Shown here piece by piece: positions 7,820 to 47,216 of a stretch of DNA of 64,000 nt. This stretch comes from Ignavibacteriota bacterium (GTDB lineage: Bacteria; Bacteroidota; Ignavibacteria; UBA10030). How positions within the stretch are numbered: position 1 is the first letter of the stretch; each line of letters opens with the position of its first letter. The position numbers and the translations under genes are program-made. The notes under the pieces were generated by a model that had not been told where the DNA came from, ran no database searches, and saw only the letters and a program-made list of their open reading frames with translations. The stretch spans positions 1,702-65,701 of the forward strand of contig JAKEEG010000066.1 of NCBI GenBank assembly GCA_022616555.1, written 5' to 3'.

Positions 7820-8425
7820 TTACCGCATCCTTCCCTTTAAAGTTTCCGCAACCTCGTATAGACTAATCCCTTTATCTGCTAACAACACCAGCAAGTGATA
7901 CAACAAGTCCGCCGATTCCTCTTTTAGCGCTTCGGGCTTTTGCTGAAGCGACGCGACGATAACTTCCACCGCCTCTTCTCCGACCTTTTGAGAAATGTAA
8001 GACGTCCCGCGTGCAAACAATGTCGCTGTGTAGGAATCCTTCGGCATGTCGCGCTTGCGCCGACGGATGGTTTCTTCTAATTGATGCAATGTTGACGGGC
8101 CCTGTTCTCGTTTTTCCTCGCCGAAGCATGTGTAGGTTCCATTGTGGCAAGTTGGCCCACTTGGGGTAGCATAAATGAGCAGCGCGTCGTTGTCGCAATC
8201 CGTTTGTGCAGAAACAACGGTGAGCGTGTTACCGGATGTCTCACCCTTCTGCCATAAGCGTTGTTTCGTGCGGCTCCAAAACGTCGTTTTTTTGTCTCTG
8301 AGTGTTTTCTCAACGGCTTCGCGGTTCATAAATCCCACCATTAACACTTGCCACGTTGAGGCGTCTTGCACAATAGCCGGGATTAAGCCGTTGAGCTTGC
8401 TGAAATTCAGCTGGTCGATGTTCAT
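7820..8425 (-). CDS. hisIE: bifunctional phosphoribosyl-AMP cyclohydrolase / phosphoribosyl-ATP pyrophosphatase
   Basis: 201 aa with the HisI motifs [17 protein letters not shown] and CDNDALL and a C-terminal HisE helical domain. It is the last gene of the his operon. Confidence 0.9.
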
Positions 8426-9174
8426 CGTATAGGAATGTGCTGTTGTCTGAGAAACGATTTGAGTTCTGCGATTTTTATTTGTTGGAAGTGAAACAACGAT
8501 GCGGCGAGCACAGCATCGGCCTTCCCGTTAGTCAATGCCTCAATGAAGTGCTCGAGTTTACCAGCGCCGCCAGATGCGATCACGGGAACGCTCACTTGCG
8601 TTGAGAGTTCTCGCAGCAAGTCCACGTCGTACCCCGATTGTGTGCCATCGCGGTCCATGGAGGTGACGAGCAACTCACCCGCTCCTCGTTGGGTTGTTTC
8701 TTCAGCCCACTTGAGTGCGTCTCGGCCGGTGTTTTCCCGCCCGCCTTTCACCCAGACTGTCCAGCCGCCGTTCGTTCGCTTCACGTCGATAGCAGCGACG
8801 ATGGATTGCGAGCCGACGTGCTCCGCCGCGCGCTCTAGGAATTCCGGGTTCTGCACAATTGCTGTGTTGAGCGAGACTTTATCCGCACCCGCATCCAGCA
8901 CGCGCTTCACATCATAGACGGTACTGATGCCTCCGCCCACGGTGAAGGGAATCTGCACTGCCTCGGCAACGCGTACCACCATCTCCAGCAGTGTCTTCCG
9001 CCCCTCATGCGACGCGCTGATGTCGAGAAACACCAGCTCGTCCGCGCCTTCATCCGAGTAGCGCGCCGCCAATTCGACGGGGTCGCCAGCATCGCGCAGG
9101 TTGACGAAGTTTGTGCCTTTGACCGTCTTGCCGTCTTTTACATCGAGGCAGGGGATGATCCTTTTGGTAAGCAT
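8422..9174 (-). CDS. hisF: imidazole glycerol phosphate synthase cyclase subunit
   Basis: 250 aa with the TIM-barrel HisF motifs RIIPCLDV...GADEL..LDI. It overlaps hisIE by 4 bp. Confidence 0.95.
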
Positions 9175-9205
9175 ATGTTATCAGTTGTAAACTCTAGACC
9201 AGTTT

Positions 9206-9290
9206 GTCATTCTGAGCGTAGCGAAGAATCTCATTCCTGAATTCAAATCGAAAAAACGAGATTCTTCGTAGCTCCGCTCCTCAGAATGAC
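9206..9290. repeat. two-stem palindromic element E1 (GTCATTCTGAG...CGAAGAATCTC...GAGATTCTTCG...CTCAGAATGAC) between hisF and hisA
   Basis: Nested inverted repeats with an outer 11-bp stem and an inner 11-bp stem. It is homologous to the elements at 20666-20748 and 21422-21482. Confidence 0.7.
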
Positions 9291-9323
9291 AATTTCTTCA
9301 TGATTTTCAAAAATCTCGAGAGT

Positions 9324-10043
9324 TTATTTCACAAACTCCCGTAAATCCTCAAGTTTTATTTTTCCCTCGTACAACGCTTTTCCTACAACGATGCCGGTGA
9401 CGCCTGCTTCCACAAGCGTGTGGATGTCATCAACAGAAGAAATTCCTCCGGAGGCAAACAGTTGAATGTTCTTGAAGAACGATTTGATCTCCGTATAAAG
9501 CTCCACGTTCGGTCCTTGCATCATGCCGTCGCGGTCGATGTCCGTGCAGATGAACGTCGACGCCTTCGCGCTGATCATGTCGTAGATGAATGTGTTGGGC
9601 GAGTACTCCGACTCTGCCAGCCAGCCGCTATGTGCGATTTTGCCTCCGTGAATATCCAGCGCGATGGCGATCCGGCTTGAACCGATATCCTGTATCCACT
9701 TTTTCACGAGCGCAGGAAGTGTCACTGCGATGCTGCCGACAACCACGCGCTGAGCGCCAAGCTCTAATAATTTATCCATGTCCTCTTTGGAGCGCACGCC
9801 TCCGCCGACCTGCGCTTTGACGCCTTTGAGCGCGAGGATTTTCTCCAGCGATTCCCAGTTCGTCACCTGGCCTTTTTTCGCACCGTCCAAGTCCACGACG
9901 TGCAGGTGAGAGAAGCCGGCGTCGAGGAATGATTTTGCAACATCAGACGGGGAATCGGAATACACGGTCTGCTCGTCGAAATGTCCCTGCCGCAAGCGGA
10001 CGCATTTGCCTTGATAGATGTCGATAGCCGGGAAGATTAGCAT
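9324..10043 (-). CDS. hisA: 1-(5-phosphoribosyl)-5-[(5-phosphoribosylamino)methylideneamino]imidazole-4-carboxamide isomerase
   Basis: 239 aa with the HisA TIM-barrel motifs IFPAIDI..GKCVRL and HVVDLDGA. Confidence 0.9.
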   Translation of the reverse strand: MLIFPAIDIYQGKCVRLRQGHFDEQTVYSDSPSDVAKSFLDAGFSHLHVVDLDGAKKGQVTNWESLEKILALKGVKAQVGGGVRSKEDMDKLLELGAQRVVVGSIAVTLPALVKKWIQDIGSSRIAIALDIHGGKIAHSGWLAESEYSPNTFIYDMISAKASTFICTDIDRDGMMQGPNVELYTEIKSFFKNIQLFASGGISSVDDIHTLVEAGVTGIVVGKALYEGKIKLEDLREFVK

Positions 10044-10633
10044 CGTTCACCAAAATTTTTGAGGAGTTGAAGTCCGGCGCTCCCGGATTTTTCCGGATGG
10101 AATTGCACGCCGTAGAAATTGTTCATCTGCACGGCAGAGGAAAACGTGAGTCCGTACTCCGTCGCGCCGACGGTCTCGGGAACCGCGGGCGCGTAGTACG
10201 AATGCACGAAATAAAAATGCTCGCTTTCGGCGATGCCCGCGAAGAGCGGGGAGTCATTCCTCCTGCGCACCTGATTCCAGCCCATGTGCGGCACTTTAAT
10301 ATGTGGGAGCGAGCGCGAGTCGAATTGTACGATTTTCCCCGGTAGAATGCCAAGACAATCGGTGTGGCGCTCATCCGATTTTTCGAATAACAACTGCATG
10401 CCGAGGCAAATGCCTAAAAATGGCACACGCACGTCCTTGAGCCACCGGATCAGTCCGGCGCGATCGAGCGAATCCATCGCCATCCGCGCCTCGCCGACAC
10501 CGGGGAGAATGAGTTTGTCAGCGCGCTGAAGCTCGCCGATACTGCTGGAAACTGTGTGCCCAATGCCCAGCCGCTTCAGTGCGTTGCTCACCGAGCGGAT
10601 GTTCCCTGCGCCGTAATCGATTATGCCGATCAT
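10037..10633 (-). CDS. hisH: imidazole glycerol phosphate synthase glutamine amidotransferase subunit
   Basis: 198 aa class-I GATase with the motifs GICLGMQ and HSY. Confidence 0.9.
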   Translation of the reverse strand: MIGIIDYGAGNIRSVSNALKRLGIGHTVSSSIGELQRADKLILPGVGEARMAMDSLDRAGLIRWLKDVRVPFLGICLGMQLLFEKSDERHTDCLGILPGKIVQFDSRSLPHIKVPHMGWNQVRRRNDSPLFAGIAESEHFYFVHSYYAPAVPETVGATEYGLTFSSAVQMNNFYGVQFHPEKSGSAGLQLLKNFGERC

Positions 10634-10667
10634 GATAATCTTGAAATTCTAATGAGTAACACACCCC

Positions 10668-10788
10668 CCTTGTATCCCCTCTCGCTCTGCTCTTGCCCAC
10701 ACTCGAGAGGGGGCTCATGCACACGAGCCTTGAAAGTCCCCTCTGTGTATATGCAAGCGGGCTTGGGAGAGGGGATTTAGGGGTGTGC
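10668..10788. repeat. two REP-like GC-rich hairpins in the hisB-hisH intergenic gap (CCCCTCTCG...CGAGAGGGGG; GTCCCCTCT...AGAGGGGATTTAGGGGTGTG)
   Basis: Inverted repeats are visible. The second unit recurs at 17911-17964 at roughly 80% identity. Confidence 0.65.
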
Positions 10789-10803
10789 TTATATGCCAAT
10801 ACG

Positions 10804-11898
10804 TTACAGTATGCCTTTTGTAGATGGTAATTGACCGGGCGCTCGGTTGTCGGGCGCAGCCGCTTGTTTCAGCGCTCGCGCCACCGACTTAAACACCGCT
10901 TCCACTTTATGATGGTCGTTGCGTCCTTGCACGCTGATATGCAGATTTGAGCGCAAACCATCGGCGAGCGCCCTAAAGAAATCCTCCACTAATTCTGTCG
11001 GTAGCTCACCAACTTTTTCGCGCTCGAATTTTCCTTCAAACGTAAAATAGGGTCTGCCGCTTAAGTCGAGCGCAACCTGTGCGAGCGATTCATCCATCGG
11101 CAGCAGAAATCCGTACCGCTCGATGCCGCGCTTGTCGCCCAGCGCCTGGCGTATGGCTTCACCGAGCACAAGCCCCGTATCCTCCACGGTATGGTGCTCA
11201 TCCACACGCAGATCGCCTTTGACTGTGACTGCCATATCAATGAGCGAGTGCTTTGAAAGCAGCTCGAGCATATGGTCGAAGAACCCGATTCCCGTCGCGA
11301 TGCGGTACGCTCCGGAACCATCGAGGACAATGTCTATCGTAATGTCCGTTTCGGTCGTTTTGCGTTTAACCGAGGCAGAGCGGTTTGTGCGGAGGATGAA
11401 ACCGCACGCATCGAGAAATTTCGGCGTCACAAAATCCGCCTCAGATGTTTTGCCGTTCGTAAGCCGGACTGCTTTGCATCCGATGTTGCGCGCAAGCTGG
11501 ACGTCTGTTTCACGGTCGCCAACGACAAACGACCGCGCTAAGTCGATGTGGTTTTTCCTTAGATATTCCGTCAGCAATCCAGTTTTCGGCTTTCGGCAAT
11601 CGCACTTGTCAGCTTCCGTGTGTGGACAGATGAATATCTCCGTAAACCGGATGCCTTCGGCCCCGAGCAGAGTAAGTATTTTTTGATGTGGAATTTCAAA
11701 CGCTTCGGTTGGAAACGAAGGCGTGCCGAGATAATCCTGGTTTGTGACCATCACCAGCTCATACCCCGTATCTTGCAGCTTTCGCAGGCCCTGAAACACG
11801 CCGGGCAGAAATTCCAGTTTTTCGAGCGAATCGATTTTTTCGTCCGGCGGTTCAACAATAAGAGTACCGTCGCGGTCGAGGAATGCAACTTTCTTCAT
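10804..11898 (-). CDS. hisB: bifunctional histidinol-phosphatase / imidazoleglycerol-phosphate dehydratase
   Basis: 364 aa with an N-terminal HAD phosphatase (FLDRDGTLI) and a C-terminal IGPD domain with histidine-rich motifs. Confidence 0.9.
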   Translation of the reverse strand: MKKVAFLDRDGTLIVEPPDEKIDSLEKLEFLPGVFQGLRKLQDTGYELVMVTNQDYLGTPSFPTEAFEIPHQKILTLLGAEGIRFTEIFICPHTEADKCDCRKPKTGLLTEYLRKNHIDLARSFVVGDRETDVQLARNIGCKAVRLTNGKTSEADFVTPKFLDACGFILRTNRSASVKRKTTETDITIDIVLDGSGAYRIATGIGFFDHMLELLSKHSLIDMAVTVKGDLRVDEHHTVEDTGLVLGEAIRQALGDKRGIERYGFLLPMDESLAQVALDLSGRPYFTFEGKFEREKVGELPTELVEDFFRALADGLRSNLHISVQGRNDHHKVEAVFKSVARALKQAAAPDNRAPGQLPSTKGIL

Positions 11899-12941
11899 GG
11901 TTTTATCTCATTGAGAGTATTCAATAGTAGAGAATTTTGTTCCGCCGTCCCCGCGGTGATGCGGAGACAGTTGCCCAAGAGCGGCTCGGCGCTCCTGTCG
12001 CGTACAATGACGCCGCGTTCGGCAAGCAGCCTGTACACGGTTTTTGCTTCCCGGCAGCGGACGAGGAGAAAGTTTGCGTCCGAAGGAAACACGCGCTCTA
12101 TGGCCGCCATTTTTTTGAGCTGCTCTGAGAGATGTTCTCGCAGCTTTACGATGGCGCGCACGGCTTGCTTCATACGGCCGGGATTTTCCAATGCACGAAG
12201 GGCGGCAGAGCTCGTGAGCGCGTTGATGTTGTAAGGCGGTTTCACTTTGAGAAGATACTCAATAATTGCCGGAGACGCGATGGCGTAGCCCAAACGGATT
12301 CCTGCCAATCCCCACGCCTTCGAAAGCGTACGGAGGATGACGAGATTCGGATATGTGTCTATTTGGGTTGCTAACGACTCGGCGTCGGAAAAATCGATAT
12401 ACGCTTCATCCACCACGACAATCGCATTGGTATCGCACAGTGCAAGAATATCGTCTTGGCGAAGAAGATTTGCCGTCGGGTTGTTCGGCGAGCAACAAAA
12501 CACCAGTTTTGTTGTCGCACTCAACGCCGACTTCAGTTTTTCCACGTCCAGTTGAAATTGCTCGGTCAACAGGCATTGCCTCACCTCAACGTCTTGAATT
12601 TCTGCCGCCACACGGTACATGCCGTACGTTGGGGCGGCAATGAGAATCGAATCCTGCCTCGGCTCGCAGAAAATCCGAATTAGCAAATCAATCACCTCGT
12701 CAGAACCGACGCCCACAAACACATTCTCGGCTTTCAAACCGGCAAGCACAGCAAGCCGTGCTCGAAGAGCTGTTTGAAACGGGTCTGGATAGCGGTTAAG
12801 CTCGAGCCCATCGGCAGGAATTACGCTGCCGAGCGAATTCTCGTTTGCATCGAGCAGCACGCCCGATGCAAAATCATGCCGCGCGGCGCGGTAGGGCTTG
12901 AGCGTTTTGATGTTCGGTCGTATCAGTTGTTCAATGTTCAC
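11895..12941 (-). CDS. hisC: histidinol-phosphate aminotransferase
   Basis: 348 aa class-II aminotransferase with the PLP lysine context LRTLSKAWGLAGIRLGY. Confidence 0.9.
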   Translation of the reverse strand: MNIEQLIRPNIKTLKPYRAARHDFASGVLLDANENSLGSVIPADGLELNRYPDPFQTALRARLAVLAGLKAENVFVGVGSDEVIDLLIRIFCEPRQDSILIAAPTYGMYRVAAEIQDVEVRQCLLTEQFQLDVEKLKSALSATTKLVFCCSPNNPTANLLRQDDILALCDTNAIVVVDEAYIDFSDAESLATQIDTYPNLVILRTLSKAWGLAGIRLGYAIASPAIIEYLLKVKPPYNINALTSSAALRALENPGRMKQAVRAIVKLREHLSEQLKKMAAIERVFPSDANFLLVRCREAKTVYRLLAERGVIVRDRSAEPLLGNCLRITAGTAEQNSLLLNTLNEIKP

Positions 12942-14227
12942 GATGTAAACCTTACAGTTACTGCACGCTTGTGTGCTTCAAATCCCTCCGCCTCTGCGAG
13001 CGTTGTAAGCGTTGGGGCAAGGTTGCGCAAGCCTTCCTCGGAGATGGTTTGAAACGAAACGAATTTCTGAAAGCTTTCCACCGCCACGCCGCTGTATGCC
13101 GCTGCCGCGCCACCTGTGGGCAGAGTGTGGTTAGTCCCCGAGGCATAGTCGCCCGCGGTGACGGGCGCATATTGCCCCAGGAATACTGAGCCGGCATTTC
13201 GAATAAGCGGCACAATCTTCTCGGGTGATTGTACATTAATGATGAGATGCTCAGGAGCGTAGTCGTTTGAAAAATGAATTGCATCGTCCAACGAGTTTGC
13301 AACAACAATAAAACTATTTGCGAGCGACTGTTTGAGAATCTTTTTTCGCGGAAGACTCTCTAATAATCCTTGGACTACCCCATTTACGCGCTGAGCAAAT
13401 TCAGCATCGGTTGAGACGAGCACGACCTGCGAGTCGGCGCCGTGCTCTGCCTGCGAGAGCAAATCGGCTGCGACGTACGAGGCGTTAGCAGTCTTATCCG
13501 CAATAATAAGCAATTCGGATGGTCCGGCAGGCCCATCGATTGCCGCTCCGCCCGGCTGACAAGAAACGAACTGCTTAGTAGCGGTGACAAATGCATTCCC
13601 CGGTCCGAAGATCTTATGCACCTTGGGAATCGATTCCGTTCCGTACGCCATCGCCGCGATTGCCTGAGCCCCGCCTACACAATAGATTTCGTTGATGCCG
13701 ACAAGCTGCGCTGCGGCGAGAACGAGCGGGTCAGCCTGACCACTTTTTTGTGGTGGAGAGCAGAGTATAACGCGCTCGCATCCTGCGAGCATAGCAGGAA
13801 TGCCGAGCATAAGCACCGTCGATGGTAGTGGCGCTGAACCCGCGGGAATATATAAACCGACACACTCGATGGCTCGGGGTTCGCGCCAGCACGTAACACC
13901 GGGCATCGTTTCAACGGGCTTTTCGGTGGTGAGTTGCGCTTTGTGAAACGCGCGAATGTTCTCTGTCGCGTGTTTTAACGCCGAGATGAGATCCGGACGT
14001 AGAGCCGCCATAGCCGCCTGGATATCCGTTTCGGGAATTCTGAATTGCTTGACGTCGACACCGTCGAAGAGTTTTGTGTAGTCCCGGAGAGCGGCATCCC
14101 CGCGCTGCTTTACAGCAAGGCAAATCTCGCGCACGGACGAGCTTGTCGAGTCATTGGAGACTCCCCCTCTCGCAAGCAGGGAAACATATTTTTTCTCCGA
14201 TAATTCGGAGAGGCGATAGATGGTCAT
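12938..14227 (-). CDS. hisD: histidinol dehydrogenase
   Basis: 429 aa with HisD signature regions. It overlaps hisC and hisG by 4 bp each. Confidence 0.95.
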   Translation of the reverse strand: MTIYRLSELSEKKYVSLLARGGVSNDSTSSSVREICLAVKQRGDAALRDYTKLFDGVDVKQFRIPETDIQAAMAALRPDLISALKHATENIRAFHKAQLTTEKPVETMPGVTCWREPRAIECVGLYIPAGSAPLPSTVLMLGIPAMLAGCERVILCSPPQKSGQADPLVLAAAQLVGINEIYCVGGAQAIAAMAYGTESIPKVHKIFGPGNAFVTATKQFVSCQPGGAAIDGPAGPSELLIIADKTANASYVAADLLSQAEHGADSQVVLVSTDAEFAQRVNGVVQGLLESLPRKKILKQSLANSFIVVANSLDDAIHFSNDYAPEHLIINVQSPEKIVPLIRNAGSVFLGQYAPVTAGDYASGTNHTLPTGGAAAAYSGVAVESFQKFVSFQTISEEGLRNLAPTLTTLAEAEGFEAHKRAVTVRFTS

Positions 14228-15099
14228 TGGATGATCGTCTCGATTGGCACGACAATGATATCGCTAGCGCCTGCGCTTTTGAGCCGCTCCATCACATCCC
14301 AGAACACATTCTCTGCGATAACCAAATGCAGGGCGACCATGCCTTCCTCTGCAAGAGGCACAATGGTAGGGCTTTTCAGGGCGGGGATAATTTGCTTCAA
14401 GCGCGGAATGGCGTTCACCGGAGCGTTGAGCATAATGTAGCGCTTGCCGCGCGCTTGCAAACTGCCGGAAAATCGGATCAGCAACCGGTCGATGAGAGAT
14501 TTTTTTGATTTATCCGCGAACGCTTTTGGATTAGCGATGAGCACGGCTTCGGATTCCATGACCGAGAGCAACGGGCGCAGTCCATTAACCCGCGCAGTTG
14601 TGCCGGTTGAGACAATATCGCAGATAGCGTCGGCGACGTCGAGCGTGGGGGCAAGCTCCACTGCGCCGCTTAACTCGACAATCTCGCAGCGCAATTTTTT
14701 GGAGCGCAGGAATTTGTTGAGCGTATTTGGGTACGTTGTTGCGACGCGCTTCCCACGCAGATTGCGTAGTGACCGGATCGATGACCGTAGGGGCACGCTC
14801 AGCATGAGCCTGCACGCACCATATCCGAGGCGCTGGAGCTGTTTAACGCGAGCGCCGCGTTCCAACACCACGTTCTCGCCCACGATGCCGAGCTCGGCGA
14901 CGCCATCCTGCACATACTCCGGGATGTCATCGTCCCGCAGCGCGAGCACGTCAAGCTCGAAGTTGCGGCACGGGGAGTACAGGCTCTGCTTCTGGAATTC
15001 AAATTCCAGTCCGCACGAGCGCAGAAGCCCAAGCGAGTCGTCTGTTAGCCTGCCGTTTTTTTGTAGGGCAATTTTTAATCGTCCATTAGATGCCACCAT
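14224..15099 (-). CDS. hisG: ATP phosphoribosyltransferase, long form with C-terminal regulatory domain
   Basis: 291 aa HisG-long. No hisZ gene is present, which is consistent with the long form. Confidence 0.9.
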   Translation of the reverse strand: MVASNGRLKIALQKNGRLTDDSLGLLRSCGLEFEFQKQSLYSPCRNFELDVLALRDDDIPEYVQDGVAELGIVGENVVLERGARVKQLQRLGYGACRLMLSVPLRSSIRSLRNLRGKRVATTYPNTLNKFLRSKKLRCEIVELSGAVELAPTLDVADAICDIVSTGTTARVNGLRPLLSVMESEAVLIANPKAFADKSKKSLIDRLLIRFSGSLQARGKRYIMLNAPVNAIPRLKQIIPALKSPTIVPLAEEGMVALHLVIAENVFWDVMERLKSAGASDIIVVPIETIIQ

Positions 15100-15111
15100 G
15101 AGAGTAGTCCT

Positions 15112-15131
15112 TACTTTACTTTGGTAAAGTA
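15112..15131. promoter_or_regulatory. 20-bp palindrome TACTTTAC-TTTG-GTAAAGTA, 13 bp upstream of the hisG start codon
   Basis: A perfect 8-bp inverted repeat with a 4-bp spacer. A near-identical palindrome lies at 15435-15456 on the other side of the TrpR-like gene. Confidence 0.6.
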
Positions 15132-15145
15132 TACCTTCAAAAAAA

Positions 15146-15436
15146 TTATGTTGTGGTGCGTGTCCGCCGGAGCATCATCGCGTAGCCGCCCTTGCCACGC
15201 TTAAGCCATTTATGCACGCGTGCGATAGTGCGCGAGCTGAGTCCCGTTTCGCGTTCAATCACTGTGTAGGGAACGCCCTCGGCGAGCATGCGGGCGGTCT
15301 TCCAGCGCTCCACCATCTCGCGGATCTCCGTTTCGGTCAGCAGGTCGCGGAAGAATTTCTGGCACTCTTCCGTTGTACGCAATTGCAATACCGCGCTGAA
15401 GAGGTGGTTGATATCGTATGTGCTTGGGCGTTTCAT
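15146..15436 (-). CDS. TrpR-like DNA-binding protein, YerC/YecD family
   Basis: 96 aa, clearly alignable by eye to B. subtilis YerC (LF.A.L.L...EEC..FF.DL.T..EI......R...A.M...G..Y..IE.E.G.S..TI.RV). It sits 46 bp upstream of hisG on the same strand. Confidence 0.8.
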   Translation of the reverse strand: MKRPSTYDINHLFSAVLQLRTTEECQKFFRDLLTETEIREMVERWKTARMLAEGVPYTVIERETGLSSRTIARVHKWLKRGKGGYAMMLRRTRTTT

Positions 15437-15456
15437 ACTTTACTTAAGTAAAGTAT
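15435..15456. promoter_or_regulatory. 22-bp perfect palindrome ATACTTTAC-TTAA-GTAAAGTAT abutting the start codon of the TrpR-like gene, in the divergent region shared with the threonine dehydratase gene
   Basis: A perfect inverted repeat with the same half-sites as 15112-15131. Confidence 0.6.
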
Positions 15457-15588
15457 AGTGAATTTTCGGATATGAGTCAAGCGGCGTTTCGCTTCAGTCG
15501 CAAATAACACGCGAATGCCTTCATTTCGGGCGTGTTTACCAACTTTTCCCTTGTCATTCAAGGCGGATTTTTCTACCTTTTGCTCGCT

Positions 15589-16536
15589 ATGGTACAGTAT
15601 AAAGACATAGAAAAAGCATACGGTACACTCAGTTCCATTGTTCACAAGACTCCGTTATTGACGTCCCGGATGTTCAACGAACACTCCGGCAACGAGGTGT
15701 TCCTTAAGGCGGAGAACCTGCAGCGCGCCGGAGCGTTCAAAATCCGCGGCGCGTATAACAAGATTTATTCGCTTTCGCCAGAGGAACGCTGCCGCGGAGT
15801 CGTGGCGCATTCCTCCGGCAACCACGCACAAGGCGTTGCGCTTGCCGGGCAGTTGCTCGGTGTTCGCGTTACCGTCGTCATGCCCAAAGGCTCCGTGCCG
15901 AACAAAGTCGAAGGCGCGAAATCCTACGGCGCCAAAGTGGTTTTCAGCGAGGATTCCTCAGACGCCCGCGAACAATTGGCGAAGCAACTGAAGCGCGAGC
16001 ATGGTTACGTGCCCGTGCCGCCGTTTGATGATGACGACATCATCGCCGGGCAGGGAACGGTAACCGTGGAAATCTCCCGCCAGCAATCCGACCTGGATTA
16101 TCTCTTCGTGCCCGTCGGCGGCGGCGGGTTGATCTCCGGTAACGCAATAGCTGCAAAGCATCTGTTCCCGAAAATTAAAGTCGTCGGTGTGGAGACCGAG
16201 CCGGCGAACGACTGTTACCAAACGTTCCGCCAAAAGAAGATCGTCCGCATCGCTCCTCCGAAAACGATAGCCGATGGCATGCGCACGCAGGCGATCGGGG
16301 AGCGGAATTTCGAGATTATCATGAAATACGTCGATGATGTCATCACCGTCACCGATGACCAGGTGATAGCGATGATGAAATTTTTCGCCGAGCGCATGAA
16401 AGTCGTTGTGGAACCGACGGGCGCGGTTGCTCCCGCGGCTGTATTCCACAATGTAGCACGGCTCTCCGGGAAGAAGGCCGCCGCCATCATCAGCGGAGGG
16501 AATGTCGATCCGAAATTTTTGAAACAAATTTTATGA
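15589..16536 (+). CDS. threonine/serine ammonia-lyase (PLP-dependent, short form without ACT domain)
   Basis: The ORF track starts at 15532, but the ATG at 15589 (MVQYKDIEKAY) fits the family N-terminus. It has the PLP lysine motif SGNEVFLKAENLQRAGAFKIRGA and a glycine-rich loop. Confidence 0.8.
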   Translation: MVQYKDIEKAYGTLSSIVHKTPLLTSRMFNEHSGNEVFLKAENLQRAGAFKIRGAYNKIYSLSPEERCRGVVAHSSGNHAQGVALAGQLLGVRVTVVMPKGSVPNKVEGAKSYGAKVVFSEDSSDAREQLAKQLKREHGYVPVPPFDDDDIIAGQGTVTVEISRQQSDLDYLFVPVGGGGLISGNAIAAKHLFPKIKVVGVETEPANDCYQTFRQKKIVRIAPPKTIADGMRTQAIGERNFEIIMKYVDDVITVTDDQVIAMMKFFAERMKVVVEPTGAVAPAAVFHNVARLSGKKAAAIISGGNVDPKFLKQIL

Positions 16537-22903: not shown

Positions 22904-23023
22904 CTCCCCCTGTCCGTCTACGACGGACATCCCCCTCAAAGAGGGGGACAAAAGAACTCTGGTTTCATTTCATGTTAAGTCGATTTTGTATATCCCCTCC
23001 CCGAGGGGGATACAGGGGGAGGT
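22904..23023. repeat. cluster of REP-like palindromes (CCCCCTC-aaa-GAGGGGGACAAAAG; ATCCCCTCC-CCGAGGGGGATACAGGGGGAGG) plus the GTCCGTC/GACGGAC hairpin
   Basis: Inverted repeats read directly from the sequence. They lie between the MFS gene start and the 5'-nucleotidase stop. Confidence 0.7.
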
Positions 23024-25235: not shown

Positions 25236-25403
25236 TTTTTTCGCAACATTTTGGATTCCCCCCCCCGCCTCTTCGAGGAACTCCCTCAAGAAGGGGGACA
25301 AAAAAAATCTTTGACCCTCCGCCGAAGATGCAGAGGGAGCAGGGAACGTTTCTGTATGCATTATTAGAAATTCTTCCTCTGTCCCCCTCTACGAGGGGGA
25401 TAC
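25141..25403. repeat. cluster of REP-like palindromes (CCGGTTAGCCGCGGCTAACCGG; TCCCCCTTGGTTAGGGGGACAAAAAAG; ...CTCAAGAAGGGGGACAAAAAAAA; GTCCCCCTCTACGAGGGGGATACAGGGGGAGG)
   Basis: Same family as 22904-23023 and 47184-47216. The first two units fall inside the predicted N-terminal region of the 5'-nucleotidase ORF. Confidence 0.7.
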
Positions 25404-25419
25404 AGGGGGAGGTTATGAT

Positions 25420-47183: not shown

Positions 47184-47216
47184 TGTCCCCCTCCCAGAGG
47201 GGGATACAGGGGGAGA
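47184..47216. repeat. REP-like palindrome (TGTCCCCCTCCCAGAGGGGGATACAGGGGGAG)
   Basis: Near-identical to the copies at 22992-23023 and 25371-25403. Confidence 0.7.

What the first reader, a model, noticed from the sequence alone, without database searches (positions are those of the whole stretch)
15100..15600. TrpR-like (YerC/YecD) gene wedged at the head of the histidine operon, bracketed by two near-identical 20-22 bp palindromes
A 96-aa TrpR-like YerC/YecD homologue sits 46 bp upstream of hisG on the same strand. A perfect palindrome (A)TACTTTAC-TTAA-GTAAAGTA(T) abuts its start codon at 15435-15456, and a second copy TACTTTAC-TTTG-GTAAAGTA lies between it and hisG at 15112-15131. The half-sites resemble the style of the E. 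coli TrpR operator (GTACTAG-TTAA-CTAGTAC). I see no T-box or attenuator leader upstream of hisG. This reads as a dedicated TrpR-family histidine repressor (HisR-like) that is autoregulated and also gates hisGDCBHAF-IE. The upstream palindrome also lies in the promoter region shared with the divergent threonine dehydratase gene. From memory, YerC orthologues were proposed computationally as HisR in Firmicutes; finding this arrangement in an FCB-group genome would be a notable phylogenetic extension.
Basis: partly seen in the sequence, partly recalled or inferred. Interest (0 to 1): 0.7.

Follow-up and report, generated by a model that had tools for sequence, protein, structure and literature searches.

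The report
HisR repressor heading a histidine operon

Summary
A 96-aa YerC/YecD (HisR-type) TrpR-fold gene (15146-15436, minus strand) lies 46 bp upstream of hisGDCBHAF-IE. Two palindromes TACTTTAC-N4-GTAAAGTA (15436-15455 and 15112-15131) are the only such sites in 64 kb.

They match the published HisR consensus cacTTTA-N6-TAAAgtg (Ashniev et al. 2022, PMC9413887). In that study HisR binding needed histidine in vitro, and HisR was reported in seven phyla but not in Ignavibacteria or Bacteroidota.

In 52 related Ignavibacteria or "Bacteroidota" genomes:
- hisR-hisG adjacency holds in 49.
- Operator 1 is present in 50 and operator 2 in 46.
- Only one other exact core match occurs in 374 kb.

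Operator 1 overlaps the -10 box of a conserved TTGACa-17-TATACT promoter, and its last base is the A of the hisR ATG. This geometry fits promoter occlusion and autoregulation.

Operator 2 has no conserved promoter. A T7-9 run with no hairpin lies 7-8 nt upstream of it. I read this, tentatively, as an intra-operon roadblock.

The divergent PALP dehydratase gene has its own promoter at least 60 bp away, so its control by HisR is not supported.

Verdict: a real feature, a new member of a known kind, of modest interest.

The parts
15146..15436 (-). hisR: 96-aa YerC/YecD (HisR-type) TrpR-fold repressor gene
   Evidence: Pfam PF01371 at 7.9e-22 and TIGR02531 at 82.8 bits. Sequence relatives in the PDB are 3KOR, 3FRW and 3G1C. 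The AlphaFold model has pLDDT 93.8 and TM 0.83-0.88 to those structures.
15436..15455 (.). Operator 1 (O1): TACTTTACTTAAGTAAAGTA. Its last base is the A of the hisR start codon.
   Evidence: A site is present in 50 of 52 related loci, and 46 of them sit at exactly this offset. It matches the HisR consensus cacTTTA-N6-TAAAgtg.
15452..15480 (-). Promoter P1 of hisR. The -35 box TTGACT is at 15475-15480 and the -10 box TATACT is at 15452-15457, with a 17-nt spacer. The -10 box shares 4 nt with O1. The predicted start is near 15445, giving a leader of about 9 nt with no Shine-Dalgarno sequence.
   Evidence: scores it 10 of 12. TTG at 16-18 nt spacing is conserved in 46 of 50 relatives, and TATACT in 27 of 50. 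The start site is inferred, not measured.
15139..15145 (-). T7 run on the coding strand, directly after the hisR stop codon and 7 nt upstream of O2
   Evidence: A T6-9 run lies 7-8 nt from O2 in 38 of 40 loci that have one. No hairpin precedes it: fold z-scores range from -1.9 to +1.9. It is absent wherever O2 is absent.
15112..15131 (.). Operator 2 (O2): TACTTTACCAAAGTAAAGTA as read on the coding strand, lying between hisR and hisG
   Evidence: A site is present in 46 of 52 relatives, and in 29 of them its last base is the A of the hisG ATG. The -35 and -10 boxes are not conserved here.
15108..15112 (-). Shine-Dalgarno-like AAGGA, 8 nt before the hisG ATG. It is specific to this genome, which carries 12 extra nt between O2 and the ATG.
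   Evidence: Read. Most relatives have no such insert.
7820..15099 (-). Histidine biosynthesis genes: hisG (14224-15099), hisD (12938-14227), hisC (11895-12941), hisB (10804-11898), hisH (10037-10633), hisA (9324-10043), hisF (8422-9174), hisIE (7820-8425)
   Evidence: Pfam and NCBIfam assignments. The same order is seen in relatives.
15551..16536 (+). Divergent PALP-family threonine/serine-dehydratase-like gene, with ATG at 15589. It has its own promoter-like TTGTCA (15551-15556), a 17-nt spacer, then TACCTT (15574-15579). It is a neighbour, not a demonstrated target.
   Evidence: The gene is divergent in 33 of 52 relatives. Its promoter elements are conserved and separable from P1/O1.

Best explanation
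This is a HisR regulon of the known type. The 96-aa protein is a dimeric TrpR-fold repressor. With histidine as co-repressor, it binds two 20-bp operators.

O1 covers the region from the -10 box of the hisR promoter to the hisR start codon. Bound HisR therefore excludes RNA polymerase and represses hisR itself and everything transcribed from P1.

O2 lies inside the same transcription unit, between hisR and hisG. It adds a second layer of repression that acts on the biosynthetic genes only. The enzymes are then shut off more tightly than the repressor.

Most likely O2 acts as a roadblock to elongating polymerase. The polymerase would be halted over the conserved T-run 8-15 nt upstream of O2.

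What is shown here:
- family membership of the protein;
- identity of the motif with the published HisR motif;
- conservation of both operators, of P1 and of the T-run.

What is inferred:
- histidine as the effector, taken from R. gnavus HisR and from the genomic context;
- the transcription start site;
- co-transcription of hisR and hisG;
- the roadblock role of O2.
For: Protein:
- PF01371 and TIGR02531 score above their cut-offs.
- A profile search of the PDB hits only the HisR-type structures 3KOR, 3FRW and 3G1C (1e-19 to 1e-24). It does not hit E. coli TrpR even at E<=10.
- The model has TM 0.83-0.88 to those structures against 0.63-0.75 to TrpR.

Motif:
- Both sites fit cacTTTA-N6-TAAAgtg.
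- R. gnavus HisR bound such a site only when histidine was present.

Specificity:
- There are two sites in 64 kb against 0.09 expected.
- Only one other exact core match occurs in 373.6 kb of related loci.

Conservation in 52 related loci:
- hisG is adjacent in 49.
- O1 is present in 50, and 46 of these are at the same offset.
- O2 is present in 46.

Promoter P1:
- TTGACa-17-TAtaCT overlaps O1 in 46 of 50 loci.

O2 lies within the transcription unit:
- There is no TTG -35 box.
- The A(-11) equivalent is present in only 26 of 47 loci, against 47 of 51 at P1.
- No terminator hairpin lies between hisR and hisG.

T-run:
- It keeps 7-8 nt from O2 even where the O2-to-ATG distance varies by 2-13 nt.
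- Loci without O2 lack it.

Background from the literature:
- Repressors that block elongation are known, including PurR, GalR, CodY and CcpA (PMC10310618).
- Pol I stops 15 bp upstream of its roadblock protein, within a T-rich stretch (PMC12366685).
Against: - There is no experiment on this protein or lineage.
- The recognition helix differs from Firmicutes HisR at two predicted DNA-contact positions: SRTIARV here against TATISRV.
- The genome-wide regulon could not be scanned.
- In 29 relatives O2 abuts the hisG ATG exactly as O1 abuts the hisR ATG. That symmetry would be explained more simply by a second promoter with the same geometry. In this window O2 is even preceded by a perfect TATACT.
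- A terminator-like hairpin at the hisA stop (9317-9341) and two large gaps inside the gene row mean that a single hisG-to-hisIE transcript is not assured.
Confidence: 0.8

Rival explanations
1. O2 is the operator of a second, HisR-repressed promoter (P2) that drives hisG independently of hisR. It would have the same layout as P1: a -10 box overlapping the left end of the operator, a start inside the operator and a very short leader. The T-run would be a spacer or upstream promoter element that substitutes for a -35 box.
For: - In 29 of 44 relatives O2 ends on the A of the hisG ATG, exactly as O1 does for hisR.
- In the window O2 is preceded by TA, which gives a perfect TATACT.
- Published HisR regulons often have separate sites for hisR and for the his operon.
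Against: - There is no conserved TTG at -35.
- The base after the T-run is G in only about 60% of loci.
- The key -10 bases are poorly conserved at O2: A(-11) in 26 of 47 and T(-12) in 13 of 47. At P1 the figures are 47 of 51 and 41 of 51.
Confidence: 0.3
2. The palindromes work as RNA hairpins that mask the start codons or act as processing or termination signals, rather than as protein-binding DNA sites.
For: Each palindrome can form an 8-bp stem next to an AUG.
Against: - The hairpins are weak, at -3.7 to -5.8 kcal/mol.
- The core CTTTA/TAAAG is invariant rather than covarying. The outer positions often break pairing; for example A2 with C19 occurs in about 19 of 50 O1 sites.
- The motif equals the HisR DNA motif of other phyla.
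- The predicted P1 start lies in the middle of O1, so the hisR mRNA would carry only half of the palindrome.
Confidence: 0.04
3. The protein is a HisR paralogue that senses a different effector, as proposed for the tyrosine-linked HisR2 or for TrpR itself. The his linkage would then be incidental.
For: - Ashniev et al. describe HisR2 paralogues next to tyrosine decarboxylase genes.
- The recognition helix here is clade-specific.
Against: - hisR-hisG adjacency holds in 49 of 52 genomes, with operators at both genes.
- There is no sequence match to TrpR.
- More distant relatives in Patescibacteria sit next to hisS, hisG or a histidine-ammonia-lyase-type gene.
Confidence: 0.05
4. HisR bound at O1 also controls the divergent PALP dehydratase gene through the shared intergenic region.
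For: - The dehydratase gene is divergent from hisR in 33 of 52 relatives.
- The intergenic region is often only about 105 bp.
Against: - The dehydratase gene has its own conserved TTGTCA-17-TAC[AC]TT promoter. O1 lies on the far side of P1, at least 60 bp from it.
- Insertions of about 190 bp separate the two promoters in L016, L020, L023 and L034, and O1 stays with hisR.
- No second site lies near that promoter.
Confidence: 0.08
5. The palindrome is a generic dispersed repeat (REP-like) with no link to the YerC-like gene.
For: The window does contain other dispersed repeats, for example GGGGATACARGGGG.
Against: - There are only two copies in 64 kb, both flanking hisR.
- In 373.6 kb of related loci there is one exact core match outside the two conserved positions.
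Confidence: 0.01

Closest known systems
HisR (YerC) histidine repressor of Firmicutes and other phyla (Ashniev et al. 2022, PMC9413887; validated for Ruminococcus gnavus)
   Same: - The same protein family (PF01371, YerC/YecD).
- The same 20-bp palindrome core TTTA-N6-TAAA with ac/gt flanks.
- Sites in front of the his operon and of hisR.
- hisR directly upstream of the his operon, as in Peptococcaceae, Negativicutes, Proteobacteria and Elusimicrobium.
   Different: - The lineage (Ignavibacteriota, FCB group) is not in that survey.
- The recognition helix reads SRTIARV instead of TATISRV.
- The operators abut the start codons, at offset -19, whereas published sites lie at about -30 to -100.
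- A conserved T-run precedes the second operator.
E. coli TrpR and the trp operator
   Same: - The fold is shared (TM 0.63-0.75).
- The logic is shared: a dimeric amino-acid co-repressed repressor with a 20-bp palindromic operator and autoregulation.
   Different: - There is no detectable sequence match.
- The operator consensus differs: TGTAcTnGTnnACnAgTACA.
- The ligand-contact residues are not conserved in HisR.
Bacterial repressor roadblocks (PurR at purB, GalR, CodY, CcpA; review PMC10310618)
   Same: An operator lies downstream of the promoter, inside the transcription unit, as proposed here for O2.
   Different: - No fixed T-run partner is described for those in the review text I searched.
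- The role of O2 here is inferred only.
RNA polymerase I terminators: a Reb1/Nsi1/TTF-I roadblock plus an upstream T-rich element (PMC12366685)
   Same: The geometry matches. There the polymerase stops 15 bp upstream of the bound protein within a T-rich non-template stretch. Here the T-run occupies about -8 to -15 relative to O2.
   Different: - It is a eukaryotic system.
- That study finds an RNA hairpin is also needed for release. No hairpin is conserved here.

Membership tests
HisR (YerC/YecD branch of the TrpR family) | Small (<100 aa) protein matching PF01371 and TIGR02531 above the curated cut-offs | tested here: met
   77.6 bits against a cut-off of 27, and 82.8 bits against 42.2.
HisR (YerC/YecD branch of the TrpR family) | Closer to known HisR-type proteins than to TrpR proper | tested here: met
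   3KOR, 3FRW and 3G1C score 1e-19 to 1e-24, while TrpR is not hit at E<=10. Fold TM is 0.83-0.88 to those structures against 0.63-0.75 to TrpR.
HisR (YerC/YecD branch of the TrpR family) | 20-bp palindromic operator with consensus cacTTTA-N6-TAAAgtg | tested here: met
   Both window sites and 96 sites in relatives have an invariant CTTTA-N6-TAAAG core.
HisR (YerC/YecD branch of the TrpR family) | Sites lie in front of histidine biosynthesis or transport genes and often of hisR, and are conserved across related genomes | tested here: met
   O1 is present in 50 of 52 loci, O2 in 46 of 52, and hisG is adjacent in 49 of 52.
HisR (YerC/YecD branch of the TrpR family) | Conserved helix-turn-helix residues reported for HisR: Tyr in place of TrpR Arg69, and Ala80, Thr81, Arg84 kept | tested here: inconclusive
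   The Tyr (Y57), the Thr and the Arg are kept. The Ala80 equivalent is Arg and the Ser83 equivalent is Ala, and both are invariant in this clade. Positions were mapped by eye from the HMMER alignment.
HisR (YerC/YecD branch of the TrpR family) | Histidine-dependent binding to the operator | not testable with these tools
   Shown only for R. gnavus HisR.
TrpR proper (tryptophan repressor) | Sequence similarity to E. coli TrpR and an operator of the type TGTAcTnGTnnACnAgTACA in front of trp or aro genes | tested here: not met
   There is no sequence hit. The motif is different and the genomic context is the his operon.
RNA-based his control (T-box, his leader/attenuator) | A structured leader upstream of hisG that matches an Rfam family | tested here: not met
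   There are no Rfam matches. The hisR-hisG gap is only 46 bp.
Intrinsic terminator between hisR and hisG | A G+C-rich hairpin directly followed by the T-run | tested here: not met
   The 45 nt before the T-run fold no better than shuffles in 40 loci (z from -1.9 to +1.9). Only L035 and L041 show a clear hairpin. The scan of the window finds none there.

The most novel reading that the evidence does not exclude
O2 and its fixed upstream T-run together form a repressor-gated terminator. Histidine-bound HisR halts RNA polymerase so that its active site sits in the U-tract, and the weak rU:dA hybrid lets the transcript go without any hairpin. This would uncouple the autoregulated hisR from the his enzymes. 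It would be a bacterial counterpart of the protein-roadblock-plus-T-rich terminators of eukaryotic RNA polymerase I.
Probability: 0.2. Interest if true: 0.6.

Novelty: new member of a known kind. Interest (0 to 1): 0.3.

Why it matters
- It fills a gap. No regulator of histidine biosynthesis has been described for the Ignavibacteria/Bacteroidota side of the FCB group in the papers I could search.
- It gives these genomes a functional name for a gene that is now annotated only as "YerC/YecD family TrpR-related protein".
- The very regular layout makes this a clean system for testing how a repressor encoded in its own operon can control itself and its targets to different degrees. The layout comprises a sigma-70-like promoter, operators fused to start codons and a T-run at a fixed distance from the second operator.
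- It also offers evidence on promoter and leader architecture in a little-studied phylum.
- The core finding would not surprise a specialist in bacterial regulons.

Tried and rejected
1. Metagenome-wide scan for operator-plus-ATG (ACTTTAYNNNNRTAAAGYATG). About 115 of 125 matches were chance hits followed by very short ORFs, and only 10 were hisR or hisG loci. It says nothing about further regulon members.

2. Genome-wide regulon scan of the source genome. This was not possible.

3. Intrinsic terminator after hisR. Rejected.

4. Helical phasing or looping between O1 and O2. Spacing varies from 319 to 374 bp with no preferred phase, so I do not propose looping.

5. Bacteroidetes-type promoter (TTTG at -33, TAnnTTTG at -7). 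By eye neither operator region fits. P1 is a plain sigma-70-type promoter.

6. A later start codon for hisR or hisG that would leave room for a leader. Rejected. M1 is invariant in the alignment, Firmicutes homologues extend further at the N-terminus, and the conserved RLKIA strand of HisG starts at residue 7.

7. Rfam search for T-box or leader RNAs. Nothing was found.
Full report
**Observation**

Reading 14700-16000 and listing ORFs confirms every element of the finding.
- The minus-strand ORF 15146-15436 encodes 96 aa. It hits Pfam Trp_repressor at 7.9e-22 and NCBIfam TIGR02531 "YerC/YecD family TrpR-related protein" at 82.8 bits, against a cut-off of 42.2.
- hisG starts 46 bp downstream at 15099. 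It is followed on the same strand by hisD, hisC, a fused hisB, hisH, hisA, hisF and hisIE, down to 7820.
- The palindromes TACTTTAC-N4-GTAAAGTA lie at 15436-15455 and 15112-15131. With up to three mismatches allowed they are the only two matches in the 64-kb window. The expectation is 0.09, and none of 100 shuffles reached two.
- No Rfam family matches the window, and nothing credible matches the hisR-hisG region even at E<=10.
- The identical protein is recorded from a MAG named "Ignavibacteriae bacterium" (assembly GCA_973857345.1). This taxon belongs to the FCB group.

**What is already known**

Ashniev et al. 2022 (PMC9413887) describe HisR, the YerC orthologue.
[quoted passage not shown] - The operator is a 20-bp palindrome. 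[quoted passage not shown]
- Purified R. gnavus HisR bound its site only with histidine present.
- Neither the text nor the supplements mention Ignavibacteria, Chlorobi or true Bacteroidota.
- A survey of his genes in the Bacteroidota-Chlorobiota superphylum discusses no such regulator. Further text searches found nothing.

**The protein**

- Against PDB sequences, the protein and a profile of 27 close homologues (alignment A1) hit only three structural-genomics "putative Trp repressors". These are 3KOR (S. aureus), 3FRW (R. obeum) and 3G1C (E. eligens). Ashniev et al. use 3G1C as their HisR structure.
- E-values go down to 1e-24, while E. coli TrpR is not hit even at E<=10.
- An AlphaFold model (pLDDT 93.8, six helices) superposes on those three at TM 0.83-0.88 and 36-40% identity. 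It superposes on E. coli TrpR at TM 0.63-0.75 and 14-18% identity.
- The protein is therefore a HisR-branch member with the TrpR fold.
- Its recognition helix reads S-R-T-I-A-R-V, invariant in the clade. The Firmicutes proteins have T-A-T-I-S-R-V. Two of the residues that Ashniev et al. list as conserved DNA contacts therefore differ.

**Comparative genomics**

A scan of one genome per species with patterns from A1 returned 80 loci. Fifty-two are Ignavibacteria-type (57-81% identity, named Ignavibacteriota, Ignavibacteriales, Ignavibacterium album or "Bacteroidota bacterium").

Among these 52:
- hisG follows hisR in 49.
- A site with at most one core mismatch precedes hisR in 50. In 46 of them the last base of the site is the A of the ATG.
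- A second site lies between hisR and hisG in 46. In 29 of those its last base is the A of the hisG ATG.
- The exact core CTTTA-N6-TAAAG occurs only once elsewhere in 373.6 kb.
- The core is invariant, the four central bases are free, and O1 and O2 differ slightly but consistently. O1 is TACTTTAC...GTAAAGYA and O2 is CACTTTAT...RTAAAGTA.

The motif is not a generic repeat, and the gene co-occurs with his operons.

**Promoter and O1**

- The window has TTGACT-17-TATACT on the minus strand at 15480-15452.
- In alignments anchored on O1, TTG sits at 16-18 nt spacing in 46 of 50 loci (TTGACA, TTGCAT or TTGACT). The -10 hexamer is TATACT in 27 of 50. T(-12) is kept in 41 of 51 and A(-11) in 47 of 51.
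- The last four bases of the -10 box are the first four of O1.
- A start about 7 nt downstream would fall in the centre of O1. That leaves a leader of roughly 9 nt with no Shine-Dalgarno sequence.
- This is not unusual here. Only about 12 of 51 long ORFs in the window have even a permissive SD 4-mer. The divergent gene shows the same short-leader layout.
- Bound HisR would cover roughly -12 to +9. This is classical promoter occlusion and, because hisR is the first gene, autoregulation.
- The start site is inferred.

**O2 and the T-run**

- Upstream of O2 there is no conserved -35 box. The -10-equivalent bases are weakly kept: A(-11) in 26 of 47 and T(-12) in 13 of 47.
- What is conserved is a run of 6-9 T on the coding strand, right after the hisR stop codon. 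It lies 7-8 nt from O2 in 38 of the 40 loci that have a run.
- The 45 nt before the run fold no better than shuffled sequence (z from -1.9 to +1.9). It is therefore not an ordinary intrinsic terminator. Only two loci show a real hairpin.
- The run keeps its distance to O2 where the O2-to-ATG distance varies by 2-13 nt. This window is one such case, with 12 extra nt carrying an AAGGA.
- The run is missing in the loci that have no O2 and an almost abutting hisR-hisG.

My preferred reading is that hisG is transcribed from P1 and that O2 is an intra-operon operator. Repression of the enzymes is then the product of O1 and O2, while hisR feels O1 only. Repressor roadblocks of this kind are established for PurR, GalR, CodY and CcpA. 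The T-run occupies about -8 to -15 relative to O2. This is close to where polymerases stall in front of a bound protein. Pol I, for example, stalls 15 bp upstream of its roadblock site within a T-rich stretch.

This part is inference. The main rival is a second promoter with the same geometry as P1. That would explain why O2 abuts the hisG ATG in most relatives, and why O2 in this window is preceded by a perfect TATACT.

RNA-level action of the palindromes is unlikely.
- The hairpins are weak, at -3.7 to -5.8 kcal/mol.
- The core never covaries.
- The outer positions often break pairing.

**The divergent gene**

- The PALP gene (probable ATG at 15589) is a 334-aa-class threonine/serine-dehydratase-like protein. 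It scores below the equivalog cut-offs of all NCBIfam models.
- It is divergent from hisR in 33 of 52 relatives.
- It has its own conserved TTGTCA-17-TAC[AC]TT promoter, about 10 nt before its ATG. In the window this is at 15551-15579.
- O1 lies beyond P1, at least 60 bp from that promoter. In four relatives an insertion of about 190 bp separates the two promoters, and O1 stays with hisR.
- I therefore see no support for HisR control of this gene.

**Limits**

- No complete genome of the lineage could be scanned for further sites.
- A metagenome scan for operator-plus-ATG was swamped by chance matches.
- Inside the his gene row there are two large gaps, hisB-hisH (170 bp) and hisA-hisF (149 bp). 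They contain repeat-like sequence and a terminator-like hairpin at the hisA stop. A single transcript from hisG to hisIE is therefore assumed, not shown.

**Verdict**

The locus is a new phylum-level member of the known HisR system, with a tidy, strongly conserved two-operator layout. The only element that might go beyond the known picture is the fixed pairing of the T-run with O2. I rate its proposed terminator role at about 0.2.

Noticed in passing
Loci L054-L069 (Patescibacteria/CPR and MAGs labelled Gammaproteobacteria): hisR homologues (50-60% identity) carry two tandem HisR-type sites upstream, 23-32 bp apart. The proximal site often ends on the ATG, and the distal one begins with GAC. 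Most of these loci have no his operon. Neighbours include hisS (L059), a short hisG (L055), an aromatic-amino-acid (histidine) ammonia-lyase-type gene (L069), an M20 peptidase, and proteins with a PGGNDT motif and no Pfam hit.
   Followed up: partly
Loci L071, L074-L077 and L081 (Peregrinibacteria-type and other Patescibacteria): More distant homologues (43-46% identity) have a different palindrome, TGTTTTA-N6-TAAAACA, 28-39 nt before the start codon. A short-hisG operon lies about 1.6 kb downstream in L074, L076 and L081. This suggests a shifted operator specificity.
   Followed up: no
window 10666-10679, 23006-23019, 25396-25409, 47200-47213 (and 2844-2857 with 2 mismatches): A dispersed G-rich repeat, GGGGATACARGGGG, has 5 matches against 0.39 expected. 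One copy lies inside the 170-bp hisB-hisH gap, flanked by CCCCTCTC/GAGAGGGG inverted repeats.
   Followed up: partly
window 9206-9341 (minus strand): An 11-bp-stem terminator-like hairpin overlaps the hisA stop (9317-9341). In the hisA-hisF gap there is a long imperfect inverted repeat, GTCATTCTGAGGAGCGGAGCTACGAAGAATCTC paired with GAGATTCTTCGCTACGCTCAGAATGAC. It may split or modulate the his transcript.
   Followed up: no
window 15551-15591 and related loci: The divergent PALP gene has a conserved TTGTCA-17-TAC[AC]TT promoter only about 9-12 nt before its ATG. Together with P1 and the low Shine-Dalgarno frequency (about 12 of 51 long ORFs), this suggests that sigma-70-type promoters with very short, SD-less leaders are common in this lineage.
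   Followed up: partly
L016, L020, L023, L034 (hisR-dehydratase intergenic region): An insertion of about 190 bp with internal inverted repeats (cacagag...ctctgtg) sits between the two divergent promoters. It looks like a small mobile or repeat element.
   Followed up: no
L025, L037, L053: These look like decaying versions of the locus. L037 has hisR without hisG and a degenerate O1. L025 has O2 and the first codons of hisG, but no HisG match further on. L053 has one core mismatch in each operator.
   Followed up: no
L097, L127, L195 (metagenome contigs): A recurrent ORF of about 156 aa (MLDGPRRRD...) starts directly after a motif match, CACTTTATCAAGATAAAGCATG, in a GC-rich context. It is not related to hisR or hisG. 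Whether it is a chance match or a real target is unknown.
   Followed up: no
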